A stretch of DNA of 64,000 bases. Origin: Octopus vulgaris (taxonomy: Eukaryota). A program made the position numbers and the translations under genes. The stretch covers positions 5,828,001-5,892,000 of the forward strand of contig OX597831.1 in the NCBI GenBank assembly GCA_951406725.2, read 5' to 3'. Under the pieces are notes generated by a model that was given only the letters and a program-made list of their open reading frames with translations, had not been told where the DNA came from and ran no database searches. Below are positions 3,576-60,468 of the stretch, piece by piece. How positions within the stretch are numbered: the first letter of the stretch is position 1; each line of letters opens with the position of its first letter.

Positions 3576-3626
3576 GTCTTACAGCTGTTTCCAGGATATT
3601 TATTAATTATATCCCTTCATCGGGGT
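3576..3626 (-). ncRNA. Degenerate minimal hammerhead-like motif
   Basis: Minus strand CCGATGA-AG-GGATAT..ATATCC-TG-GAAAC-AGCT-GTA; palindromic stem III ACAGCTGT; core position U4 is C. Confidence 0.5.
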
Positions 3627-4063
3627 ATATATATACATATATATACATACATACATATATATATACATGCATACATATATATACATACATATATATATAT
3701 ATATATATATATATATATATATATATATGTATATATATATATATATATATATATATATATATATATATATATATATATAAATATATGTATGTATGTATGT
3801 ATAGCGTAACAGTAGATATTCTGTTGTATATCTTTATCCACATTGTATATATAACGTAGACATTAGATTAACTTAGGGCGAAGTAGATAATTTTTTAGAA
3901 TTGAGAACAATCGCGATAAAACGTTTTAGCTTTTGATTTCTACCATATTAACTTCATCCTTTATGTCGCTTTATCTAATTCTATGCTCTGGTCACGTGGC
4001 CTGAGCTGCAGAGGAAGAAGGAAACTTGTAGCTATGTAAATTTACCACACCGTTTAGACTTTA

Positions 4064-4797
4064 GGAGGTGGTATCAAAAAATTCCCGGACTAGATCTGTA
4101 GCGCGGCAACAGATGACAGCACAGGGTTTCGTGCCCAGTGAGAACTAGCAGTGACCATGAGGCAGTATGTTGACTGATATTGCTGTGTTTACTTCGCAAA
4201 CTGAGAAAATTGTGTTTTTGTGATCAGGTGTATGCTGTTTCTGCGACTTTTTCATGAACCGGAAGTTGGAACAAAGAGACAACATGAAATTTGGCGTTGA
4301 ACTCGGAAAGTCTGCGACAGAGACATTGAACATGCTTTGGCAAGCTTACGCCGAGAAGGCAATGGATCGTATACAATGTTTCGAGCGGCACGGGCGCTTC
4401 AAAAGCGTAAGAATGTCTCTGCAAGAGGTGCCACGAGCGTCACCCCCGGAAATGTGGAAAAAAATTTCTCAGTTAGTGCACGGGGATTGTCGGGGGACAA
4501 TCAACGACGTTTCGAAACTTTTGAAGGAGGACATTCGGCGAAAATGGCCGGATCTGTGGAGTGCGACGAATTAATCGTAACTTAGCGGTTCGGCAAAAGA
4601 GACCGATAAAATAAGTACTAAGATTTACGAAGAATAAGTCCTGGGGTCGATTTGCTCGACTAAAGGCGGTGCTCCAGCATGGCCGCAGTCAAATGGCTGA
4701 AACAAGTAAAAGAAAAGAAAGAAAGAGATAGAGATATAATTTTTTTTCTTTTTAATATTAAACATAACTCATCCGGGAACTTTTCGATACCACCTGA
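4064..4797 (+). mobile_element. Internally deleted mariner element with a family-B SINE tail inside
   Basis: TIRs GAGGTGGTATCAAAAAATTCCCGGA / TCCGGGAACTTTTCGATACCACCT; mariner HTH N-terminus LEQRDNMKFGVELGKSATETLNMLWQAY; SINE piece at ~4575-4715. Confidence 0.8.
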
Positions 4798-5140
4798 CAT
4801 AGTGAAGTAAAAATTGACAGAATTTGTAGCATATTCGTCAAGAGAATGACTTGAACGCCAAAATTTTGTCTTCTTGTAAACTAAATATCCTGCTCCATGT
4901 AAGAAAAAAAAACCGATCATCATATTCGCTAGTTATTTACATTTAATCATATTTAGTTGTTAATGAATCGTTATATGCACGGTGAACAGCGCGATTTGAA
5001 AAGATGACTAGCGTATTTATTCTTAATACGTTCCGCCAGGTTCGAACGTGAATAGGTCAATCGTTGATGTATTTCGTAACAGGAGAACAACGTCACCTTT
5101 ATGATAACTATTTGTTCATAATCACGGTATCATGGTATCG

Positions 5141-5526
5141 GTGGAGGCGCAATGGCCCAGTGGTTAGGGCAGCGGACTCGCGGTCATAGGATCGCGGTTT
5201 CAATTCCCAGACCGGGCGTTGTGAGTGTTTATTGAGCGAAAACACCTAAAAGTTCCACGAGGCTCCGGCAGGGATGGTGGTGATCCCTGCTGTACTCTTT
5301 CACCACAACTTTCTCTCACTCTTACTTCCTGTTTCTGTTGTACCTGTATTTCAAAGGGTCGGCCTTGTCACTCTCTGTGTCACGCTGAATATCCCCGAGA
5401 ACTATGTTAAGGGTACACGTGTCTGTGGAGTGCTCAGCCACTTACACGTTAATTTCACGAGCAGGCTGTTCCGTTGATTCGGATCAACCGGAACCCTCAT
5501 CGTCGTAACCGACGGAGTGCTTCCAC
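5141..5526 (+). mobile_element. SINE family A, full length with TSD
   Basis: tRNA-like head GGCGCAATGGCCCAGTGGTTAGGGCAGCGGACTCGCGGTC; 12-bp TSD ATCATGGTATCG at 5129-5140 and 5527-5538. Confidence 0.9.
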
Positions 5527-59000: not shown

Positions 59001-59159
59001 CATGCATGCATCCATCCATCCATCCATTCATCCATCCATCCATCCATCCGTCCATCCATCCATACATCCATCCTTACATCCATCTATACATACATACATA
59101 CATACATACATACATACATACATACATACATACATACATACATACATACATACATACAT

Positions 59160-59934
59160 GATGACCGTCCACTCATGACCGAGGAAGACCATTGCTGACC
59201 TTCAGAAACGTTGTGCTCTCTATGACTTATATTCTGCATTTGCAGCCCCGTTGGTGGCTAAAGAGCTCTGCTCTTGACAAGCAGACACGACTGCAAACCT
59301 TGCAAACCAAGCTTTCCCCATTCACAACACACTAGCAGTGCGCTTTCGAGCAGCACGCTTAAGTTCTTCATGCAGAATACGTGCTCTTTCAAAGGTGTCG
59401 ACTCCCTCCTTAACCTACTTCCTTTATCTGTGGCGATGACAGGCATTGCTCTCCCAGTCAGTCTCCTGCATATCACAGGCCTTTAATGGGGATTTGACGC
59501 AGACCTTAAATCGAAGCCTTGGTTTCTGCCGGGGTCTCTTTCCACTAACAAGTTCTCCATATAGCATGTGTTTAAGGATCCTGCTATTCTTCATTCTAAT
59601 AAGGTGACCAGGCCAACGTAACCAGTGCTTGTGCCCCATCGGCTCAATACTCAAGATATCAACTTTCCTCTAGACCTAAGTGTCTGGAATTTTTAAGATC
59701 AGCCAATATTTAGAATGTGATGAAAGCGTTCAAGGATCTTTACATGACGTTTGTAAAGGGTCCGTGTCTCACATGAGTAAAGGAGCGATGTTAGTACACA
59801 TGCACAGTACACAGAAATTTTTGCTTGCCCTGTGATGTCATGCTGGAACCAGACACGAGACTCAAGAGACCGGAAGGAATCAGTTGCTCTCTACGGCCTG
59901 AAGGATATTTCATCCTCCAGGGAACAACAACGGC
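59160..59934 (-). mobile_element. RTE/BovB-like LINE 3' fragment
   Basis: CVLTSLLYSCET..WLRWPGHLIRMKNSRILKHMLYGELVSGKRPRQKPRLRFK. Confidence 0.8.
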
Positions 59935-60178
59935 TGAGTACTGGTGGAATGTCCACAGTGAAGACCTCAATAAAATGTATGCACAACAAACCTGATCTAA
60001 TGATTTGAGACAGAGGAGAGAAAGTGTACAGTTGTGGAAATTAGCTGCCCAGCGGATGTTAACATAAAGCTGAAGATCAGTAAAAAAGAGAATACCAACG
60101 CTGAACTATTAAGAAATATGCAGTTACTCTATTCAGACTACAAGTTCAGGTTTATACCTGTAATTTTGGGGGTCCTTG
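59935..60178 (+). mobile_element. RLE domain fragment of the 51244 LINE family
   Basis: HNKPDLMI*DR..VVEISCPADVNI..FRFIPVILGVL. Confidence 0.8.
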
Positions 60179-60429
60179 CACATCCGATTGGGCCAAACGA
60201 TCACCCATATATTTCAGCCAAATTTAATAAATATATATTACTTTAACTGTATATTATTGTAAAGTATAGAAGCCATCTTATCATGGCTAACCATATTGGG
60301 GAGGGGGTGTTACTGTAGCTTTATAGCCCCAAGAGATCTTCGTCTCTAGCTGGCTTTAGACACAATATCTGTGTCCTTGGAGTATTTGCAAAGGGAGGCC
60401 ATCCCTTCCTCGCAAGCCTGAGTGATACG

Positions 60430-60468
60430 CTCGAACTAGTTTCGGGATTGTTGTCCCTCGTCAACGGG
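60430..60468 (-). ncRNA. Minimal hammerhead-like motif
   Basis: CG-TTGACGA-GGGA-CAACAA-TCCC-GAAAC-TA-GTT-CG; palindromic stem III AACTAGTT. Confidence 0.6.

What the first reader, a model, noticed from the sequence alone, without database searches (positions are those of the whole stretch)
3576..60468. Over a dozen minimal hammerhead-ribozyme motifs, in at least 8 families, scattered through microsatellites
Seen: type-I layouts (stem I, (C/T)TGANGA, hairpin II, GAAA, short mostly palindromic stem III, NUH) at 3576(-), 8323(-), 13116(+), 13361(+), 19928(+), 26562(+), 26931(-), 39757(-), 41644(+), 44907(-), 55429(-) and 60430(-), plus the TTGAAAA variant at ~11630/41295/41335. Stem II sequences are unrelated between families, yet pairing is kept. 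Established: minimal hammerheads with palindromic stem III mark Penelope-like element pLTRs and retrozymes and are thought to act as dimers. Inference: this genome hosts many ribozyme-bearing PLE-derived short elements that prefer (TA)n/(CA)n. The general class is known; these families may not be catalogued.
Basis: partly seen in the sequence, partly recalled or inferred. Interest (0 to 1): 0.8.

Follow-up and report, generated by a model that had tools for sequence, protein, structure and literature searches.

The report
Octopus Penelope-element ends with hammerhead ribozymes
This octopus DNA carries about 17 real hammerhead-ribozyme motifs, several of them damaged, that are likely the tail ends of Penelope-like jumping genes landing in TA repeats, a described phenomenon; the one twist is a short, apparently abundant family whose ribozyme core carries a change predicted to weaken cutting.

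Summary
The motifs are real: a hammerhead descriptor finds 5-10 intact-core hits against 0.03-1.1 in 200 microsatellite-preserving shuffles. The genome is an Octopus. One motif (8399-) ends a 5'-truncated element, flanked by (TA)n, whose ORF remnant matches the endonuclease end of Hydra-clade Penelope-like elements (PLEs). Others show PLE hallmarks: inverted copies, a one-sided tail, a cut site 61-107 nt before (TA)n. All this is described (Cervera 2014; Craig 2021, which lists an octopus Hydra element with a hammerhead), and this scan noted the same on another genome. Less ordinary: two related ~200-bp ORF-less families with shared ends. One has A6U in 3 of 3 copies and over 90% of contig depth in two public runs; the other has U4C at 43-46%. 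This suggests amplification without efficient self-cleavage. Cleavage, circles and copy number are untested; two raw DNA runs gave far fewer reads than high copy number predicts. New members of a known kind.

The parts
8258..9226 (-). 5'-truncated Hydra-clade-type PLE: endonuclease C-terminus, 3' region, hammerhead, flanked by (TA)n on both sides
8972..9226 (-). ORF remnant matching the last ~80 aa of Hydra-type RT-GIY-YIG proteins
   Evidence: profile iE 6e-13 at positions 620-698 of 703; 1120 phmmer hits; Atlas hit named GIY-YIG, 0.91
8323..8402 (-). Intact type I hammerhead, long stem II, 8-nt palindromic stem III, predicted cut after 8326
13047..13251 (+). Family B copy 1, 205 bp, intact minimal hammerhead (core 13119, cut after 13145)
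55331..55539 (-). Family B copy 2, 91% to copy 1, U4C core (55458); U4C is 43-46% of depth in two runs
13285..13494 (+). Family A copy 1, 210 bp between (TA)n runs, A6U core (13365, cut after 13392)
26831..27039 (-). Family A copy 2, A6U core (26961)
39664..39857 (-). Family A copy 3, A6U core (39787)
11538..11787 (-). U3-A8 family, fold-back copy with one arm partly deleted; hammerhead core 11665, 3-bp stem I, 4-nt palindrome
41142..41465 (.). U3-A8 family, full head-to-head palindrome in (TA)n; two motifs (41327-, 41340+), both with G at 16.1; one arm about 60 nt longer (tail)
26556..26629 (+). Intact Hydra-type hammerhead (core 26567, cut after 26617), extended stem I, 9-nt palindrome, 61 nt before (TA)n
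26322..26499 (.). 89-bp-arm palindrome (97%) just upstream of the 26567 motif; likely inverted 5'-truncated copy
32532..32576 (+).
41643..41709 (+). Intact-core Hydra-type hammerhead (core 41650), 10-nt palindrome, 6-bp stem I, extra A on both sides of stem II
30922..31001 (-).
3507..3625 (-). Broken Hydra-type motif (core 3623, U4C, no stem I) between (TA)n runs
19931..19996 (+). Decayed Hydra-type motif: intact core, same 9-nt stem III as 26567, stems I and II eroded, ends at (AAT)n
44899..44939 (-). Hammerhead with 4-bp stem II, hairpin stem III, weak stem I; no (TA)n within 2.8 kb downstream
60424..60478 (-). Canonical-type hammerhead (core 60464) with helix I internal loop aligned to Rfam HH9; single copy in the window
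60480..60736 (.). 84-bp inverted repeat (89%) abutting the 60464 motif upstream

Best explanation
These are type I hammerhead motifs sitting near the 3' ends of repeat insertions in an Octopus genome, and they are likely the terminal regions of several Penelope-like retroelement (PLE) families and of short non-coding derivatives that likely borrow PLE enzymes. Shown: the motifs, one PLE endonuclease remnant upstream of a motif, inverted copies, a one-sided tail, and (TA)n next to the 3' ends. Inferred mechanism: the PLE GIY-YIG domain nicks (TA)n; the RT starts copying at a fixed internal site about 60-110 nt downstream of the ribozyme cut site; copying stops early (leaving 5'-truncated single ends) or folds back (leaving head-to-head pairs). 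The template is likely uncut RNA, since the motif is carried through intact. The short palindromic stem III would let two motifs cut only as a dimer or with protein help, so most single genomic copies would be silent. Families A and B (194-210 bp, same ends, no ORF) are likely non-autonomous elements whose spread did not need efficient cleavage, which would explain A6U and U4C cores rising to high frequency.
For: Excess over shuffles. Endonuclease remnant whose full-length homologs carry Hydra-clade marks: DKT 112 of 121, CxCx4-7C 119 of 121, [YF]RDD 120 of 121 (clade definition). Hydra-clade table: hammerheads 100-210 nt from the 3' end in most rows, 8-10-nt palindromes, one with the same 9-nt stem III as 19931 and 26567, extra bases either side of stem II, (TA)n targets, an O. 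bimaculoides member. Extra base after A9, G10.1-C11.1 (10 of 12 here), U3-A8, single motifs and opposite-strand pairs 100-700 bp apart are described for PLE min-HHRs. Inverted copy and one-sided tail are PLE hallmarks, seen here. In the anole PLE, RT starts 85-92 nt past the cut site, ribozyme mutants insert normally and cleavage needs protein; here 61-107 nt. A/B: shared ends; 7,347 and 10,712 contigs laid; no other letter at >=10% at position 6 of A; U4C 43-46% in B.
Against: An ORF link is shown for 1 of 11 lineages only; the Hydra profile finds no other remnant beside a motif, and no Neptune/Poseidon/Nematis profile was run. The window remnant lacks RT, DKT and the GIY-YIG core, so clade marks come from homologs at 30-49% identity. 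Three motifs lack (TA)n within 2 kb downstream. The 60-nt tail is longer than the 30-40 nt described. Raw DNA runs X23 and X24 gave only 4 and 109 reads (depth <=3 and about 60 against 0.69 per single copy), about a thousand-fold under the 1e5 copies that the window density would imply; unexplained. Fixed 5' ends of A/B rest on 3 and 2 copies. No cleavage or transcript-end data.
Confidence: 0.78

Rival explanations
1. Families A and B (and 60464) are monomers of non-LTR retrozymes: the RNA self-cleaves, circularises at about 210 nt, and one round of reverse transcription from an internal start inserts a permuted monomer with the ribozyme in the middle.
For: Length within the retrozyme range (220-390 bp repeats); cut site almost central, 97-109 nt from each flank; monomers are a described retrozyme form and retrozymes derive from pLTRs; 60464 has a canonical helix I loop.
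Against: No tandem array holds a motif; no terminal redundancy; family A has A6U, and changes at 6 lower activity; the adjacent B+A pair folds as a double hammerhead only 20 kcal/mol above the minimum. End-to-start joints could not be seen because that part was skipped.
Confidence: 0.13
2. The short families move by another route (fold-back DNA element with TA target for the U3-A8 family; LINE-driven SINE for A and B) and the motif is a fossil passenger captured from a PLE.
For: 41142-41465 is a near-perfect palindrome in (TA)n, as a MITE would be; 2 of 3 U3-A8 copies break position 16.1; many Tc1/mariner and LINE fragments lie in the window; 893 unclassified SINE families are listed for O. 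vulgaris.
Against: The two arms end 60 nt apart, unlike TIRs and like a PLE tail; no tRNA head in A or B (one search finds only the gene at 55652); laid depth peaks on the ribozyme in both families.
Confidence: 0.07
3. The motifs are chance matches in AT-rich, repeat-rich DNA.
For: With one core change allowed, shuffles give 5-7 hits (max 16) against 25; monomer folds are not better than shuffles for most motifs; no Rfam gathering hit.
Against: 0 of 200 shuffles reach the intact-core counts; unrequired features recur (G10.1-C11.1, distance to (TA)n, ORF remnant, a 12-nt core/stem III string shared by two unrelated loci and a published Hydra element).
Confidence: 0.02

Closest known systems
Hammerheads of Hydra-clade PLEs, including Hydra-1_Obim of Octopus bimaculoides (Craig et al. 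2021, PMC8557442, Files S1, S2)
   Same: C-terminal endonuclease, then a 3' region with a type I hammerhead near the end, 8-10-nt palindromic stem III, extra bases flanking stem II, (TA)n target. The 9-nt stem III of 19931 and 26567 equals that of Hydra-2_Amil and Penelope-16_HM.
   Different: By eye none of the window motifs has the stems of Hydra-1_Obim, and six window motifs searched as strings gave no match in that supplement: other families. 32538 adds U3-A8, absent from that table; 41650 and 3623 oppose purines at the base of stem II.
min-HHRs of metazoan PLEs (Cervera and De la Pena 2014, PMC4209133)
   Same: U-rich lead, 3-5-bp stem I, extra base after A9, G10.1-C11.1, CG palindrome with GUU site (families A, B); U3-A8 variant; mostly single motifs; opposite-strand pairs.
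   Different: No A6U core reported in the text or in the passages seen of the supplement; no cephalopod; ORF-less elements with shared 5' ends are not described there.
Non-LTR retrozymes (Cervera and De la Pena 2020, PMC7229834; Li, Clavereau, Pollet 2026, 10.64898/2026.07.22.740005)
   Same: Short, non-coding, type I hammerhead, PLE-dependent; monomers occur.
   Different: Defined by tandem units each with a (mostly canonical) hammerhead and circular RNA; here dispersed single copies in microsatellites with minimal, core-variant motifs.
Poseidon_Ac of Anolis (Frangieh et al. 2024, PMC11167929)
   Same: Insertion 3' end set about 85-92 nt past the cut site; AT-rich target; cleavage dispensable in vitro.
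   Different: There the ORF starts inside the hammerhead; no such ORF start was seen downstream of the window motifs.

Membership tests
Type I minimal hammerhead (PLE type) | Core C/U-U-G-A-N-G-A (or U3-A8), GAAA and NUH in type I order | tested here: met
   Met in 9 of 17 motifs (8399, 11665, 13119, 19931, 26567, 32538, 41650, 44937, 60464); 8 of 17 carry one change
Type I minimal hammerhead (PLE type) | Stem II closed by G10.1-C11.1, often after an extra base | tested here: met
   G-C in 10 of 12 family representatives
Type I minimal hammerhead (PLE type) | Short palindromic stem III able to pair only between two copies | tested here: met
   11 of 12 representatives palindromic; 44937 is a hairpin; required by my descriptor, so not independent
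Type I minimal hammerhead (PLE type) | Self-cleavage as dimer or with protein | not testable with these tools
   No RNA raw reads were offered; no molecule ends
Hydra-clade PLE (element 8258-9226) | C-terminal GIY-YIG endonuclease region upstream of the hammerhead | tested here: met
   iE 6e-13 to the end of a profile of full-length homologs; homologs hit Pfam GIY-YIG below or at cutoff
Hydra-clade PLE (element 8258-9226) | RT with DKT and linker CxCx5C | tested here: inconclusive
   Absent from the truncated copy; present in 112 and 119 of 121 homologs
Hydra-clade PLE (element 8258-9226) | Hammerhead near the 3' end; insertion in (TA)n | tested here: met
   Cut site 69 nt before (TA)n; (TA)n at the 5' junction too
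PLE in general (other 10 lineages) | Joined to an RT-endonuclease ORF | tested here: inconclusive
   None found with a Hydra profile; other clades not searched; no genome held; pattern scan of metagenomes empty
PLE in general (other 10 lineages) | Inverted 5'-truncated copy and/or one-sided tail | tested here: met
   Met at 4 of the 10 regions examined as arms abutting a motif (26567, 60464, 11665, 41327/41340); 30995 has inverted repeats further upstream; none at 5
Non-LTR retrozyme | Tandem units each holding a hammerhead | tested here: not met
   No listed tandem array covers a motif (150 of 160 rows shown); B+A neighbours are 65% alike and split by (TA)16
Non-LTR retrozyme | Canonical helix I / loop 2 tertiary architecture | tested here: not met
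   Only 60464 aligns to HH9 with the helix I internal loop, below gathering score
Non-LTR retrozyme | Abundant circular RNA | not testable with these tools
   Contigs cannot show it; joints at the element ends were skipped

The most novel reading that the evidence does not exclude
Octopus carries a lineage of ~200-bp, fixed-end, (TA)n-homing elements amplified to perhaps 1e5 copies per family with a natural A6U hammerhead core (not found in my searches of print) that stays the most conserved part of the element; the fold is kept as a protein-dependent ribozyme or as the handle by which PLE protein grips the RNA, and the genome may hold several hundred thousand hammerhead motifs, more than the 120,000 reported for axolotl.
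Probability: 0.25. Interest if true: 0.62.

Novelty: new member of a known kind. Interest (0 to 1): 0.35.

Why it matters
As a set the motifs only extend a known catalogue to more octopus families. The useful part is a natural test of an open question, whether PLE hammerheads must cut for the element to spread: sister families A (A6U), B (canonical and U4C at about half each) amplified side by side, so cleavage rates can be set against copy success. If the window's density is typical, hammerhead-bearing ends are a sizeable, unlabelled part of octopus repeat libraries.

Tried and rejected
Strict descriptor without the extra base: 0-1 hits, too tight. Rfam: swamped by microsatellite-like miRNA models, no gathering hit. 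Monomer folding z-scores: 1 of 15 below -3, most near 0; uninformative for junction RNAs. Word-index search of the ORF remnant for longer proteins: nothing. Pfam on 16 chosen ORFs: no RT or GIY-YIG. A weak match 45106-45020 upstream of 44937 (E 0.2, one query) did not hold with the profile: rejected. 43400-, 32692- and 12 other one-change hits dropped as within shuffle range or lacking convincing stems. Shifted register for family A (core starting three bases later gives a canonical U3 core) rejected: it leaves a 2-bp stem II and no stem I, and breaks homology with B. Double hammerhead between adjacent B and A copies: -30.6 vs -51.0 kcal/mol, not favoured. nhmmer for more A/B copies: only the 5 known. 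Metagenome pattern scan: 0. Raw runs X23, X24: too few reads for copy number. In one search I used a wrong cut position for the 3623 motif; corrected. Lunse et al. 2017 on dimer cleavage was not held; known here only through a review passage. bioRxiv supplements were closed, and file 1 of PMC4209133 was not searched; they could list octopus families or an A6U core.
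Full report
Setting. No whole genome is held for this window. The ORF at 17900-18652 is 83% identical to LRRC51 of Octopus bimaculoides and lies on an 84-Mb contig, so the window is from an Octopus. It is 13% simple repeats by my mask.

Observation. Hammerhead-like sequence is present at all 15 listed sites. 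A descriptor without extra bases found 0-1. Allowing the base between A9 and G10.1, a published feature of PLE hammerheads (PMC4209133), and U3-A8, intact-core counts were 5, 6, 10 and 7 under four settings against shuffle means 0.335, 0.025, 1.09 and 0.46; none of 200 shuffles that keep microsatellites in place reached the observed value. Two settings include an extra base before G12 that I added after seeing the sites. With one core change allowed the signal is weaker (25 vs 5-7, max 16), so degenerate copies were accepted only by homology to an intact relative or by strong stems. I add 32538+ and 30995-, giving 17 motifs in 12 families, 11 lineages. Rfam gives no gathering hit; 60464 aligns to HH9 at 31.9 bits with the helix I internal loop, so it is canonical-type rather than minimal. 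Pairing is kept across unrelated stems (stem II 35 of 36, stem I 30 of 36, vs 55% and 40% across families), but stems were part of the selection; G10.1-C11.1 in 10 of 12 was not required.

Position. Ten of 17 predicted cut sites lie 61-107 nt upstream of (TA)5+; background for <=150 nt is 13%; one per lineage 5 of 11, p=0.01; upstream 2 of 11. Three motifs have no (TA)5+ within 2 kb downstream.

PLE link. 8972-9226(-) encodes 80 aa with 1120 phmmer hits and an Atlas neighbour named GIY-YIG. The longest hits are RT-endonuclease proteins; of 121 long homologs 112 have DKT, 119 CxCx4-7C, 120 [YF]RDD, and their profile matches the remnant at positions 620-698 of 703, iE 6e-13. DKT, CxCx5C, a 3' hammerhead and (TA)n targeting define the Hydra clade (Craig et al., section read). 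The remnant, about 570 nt of 3' sequence and the 8399 motif form a 969-bp piece with (TA)n at both ends. The supplement of PMC8557442 (part 2 read; passages) tabulates Hydra hammerheads with 8-10-nt palindromes and extra bases beside stem II, includes Hydra-1_Obim from O. bimaculoides, and has the same 9-nt stem III as 19931 and 26567 in a coral and a Hydra element. Seven window motifs have this long-palindrome build (3623, 8399, 19931, 26567, 30995, 32538, 41650); only 8399 has an ORF remnant. Six window motifs searched as strings did not occur in that file. Inverted arms abut 26567, 60464, 11665 and 41327/41340, and in the last the two arms reach (TA)n 96 and 155 nt after the cut, a one-sided extension like the PLE tail, though longer than the 30-40 nt described.

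Families A and B. Five copies of 194-210 bp; A copies 87-92% alike, B 91%, A to B 64-74%; ends coincide within each family. They match the Cervera consensus (U-rich lead, extra A, 4-bp stem II, CG palindrome, GUU; supplement passages). All three A copies have U at core position 6. On 13046-13494, runs X9 (RNA is a guess) and X7 (another organism label) laid 7,347 and 10,712 contigs; no other letter reached 10% at position 6 (13368; one least-supported row of the table is not shown), position 7 varies (19-22%), and B has U4C at 43-46%; summed depth peaks on the ribozyme in both. The tool states that this depth is no copy number. Window density would scale to about 1.3e5 A and 0.9e5 B copies in 2.8 Gb (size derived from PMC13282606), from one selected window. 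Against this, raw DNA runs X23 and X24 gave 4 and 109 reads, about a thousand-fold fewer than predicted; silent removal of human-like repeat reads or a different species under the same label could explain it, but I could not tell. No molecule ends were listed, and joints at the element ends were skipped.

Mechanism. Shown elsewhere (PMC11167929, parts 1-2 read): a PLE protein nicks AT-rich DNA, starts reverse transcription at internal sites 85-92 nt past the hammerhead cut, needs no cleavage to insert, and the ribozyme cuts only with protein. Inferred here: the same geometry sets the 3' ends; early stops and fold-backs give single and head-to-head ends; A and B are non-autonomous riders copied from uncut RNA. 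Changes at position 6 lower activity (A6C; passages of PMC3088659 and PMC7151607) and U4C is weak in vitro but viable in a viroid, so the spread of A6U and U4C fits relaxed need for cutting. Single min-HHRs showed no cleavage and dimers little. The adjacent B+A pair does not favour a double hammerhead.

Print. Read: PMC4209133 parts 1-3 of 4 and supplement passages; 10.64898/2026.07.22.740005 parts 1 and 3 of 5; PMC13282606 part 1 of 3 and passages ('ribozyme' 0 times); PMC7229834 and PMC6765202 passages; the 120,000 axolotl figure is from a section title. Searches: octopus + hammerhead ribozyme listed 4 papers, only Craig et al. relevant; hammerhead + A6U and + the A-family core string listed two papers each, none about a natural variant by title or abstract; two searches listed no paper on dispersed short PLE derivatives beyond the retrozyme papers; non-autonomous PLEs are described for Chlamys. 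Repbase and Dfam were not available, so these families may be catalogued there. Earlier scan notes report the same kind of finding on another genome; none matched family A by sequence.

Verdict. Real, mostly explained: new octopus members of PLE-associated hammerheads, with one lead worth a bench test (A6U family). Interest 0.35.

Noticed in passing
window 18-417 (+): A second, frameshifted Hydra-type endonuclease remnant (profile iE 1.6e-4), followed by about 280 nt and (ATT)n; no intact hammerhead found after it.
   Followed up: partly
window 17900-18652 (+): Intronless 250-codon LRRC51-like ORF, 83% to an O. bimaculoides protein but 38% to other Octopus LRRC51 proteins: likely a paralog or retrocopy.
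   Followed up: partly
window 1352-2311, 20583-21185, 28669-29402, 38072-38658, 44140-44350, 47179-47607 and others: Very abundant 120-185-bp SINE-like family, often in tandem and ending in (TAA)n; resembles the octopus SINEs (name recalled, not tested).
   Followed up: no
window 5140-5525, 10972-11355, 25150-25464, 63704-64000: Young dispersed family, 89-97% alike, with a tRNA-like head by eye.
   Followed up: no
window 55652-55723 (+): tRNA-His gene about 110 nt from the start of family B copy 2, on the other strand.
   Followed up: no
window 9472-9702 and 10066-10296: 97% inverted repeat of 231 bp around a 363-bp spacer, 250 nt from the Hydra-type element; no hammerhead found in it.
   Followed up: no
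window 26567+/26961- and 41340+/41650+, 13119+/13365+: Different hammerhead families share one (TA)n tract (convergent at 26.6-27.0 kb, tandem at 13.0-13.5 kb and 41.1-41.8 kb), suggesting repeated use of the same target.
   Followed up: partly
window 14825-15929, 22405-22889, 51373-51786; 4061-4574, 25881-26252, 37096-37488, 40540-40989: Decayed LINE pieces (zf-RVT at 51373) and Tc1/mariner pieces (Mos1 HTH, DDE_3).
   Followed up: no
run X24 on window 13309-13494: Reads show local tandem duplications of parts of family A (go back 35, 54, 73 nt) and a variant with stem II changes, absent from contigs of X9 and X7.
   Followed up: no
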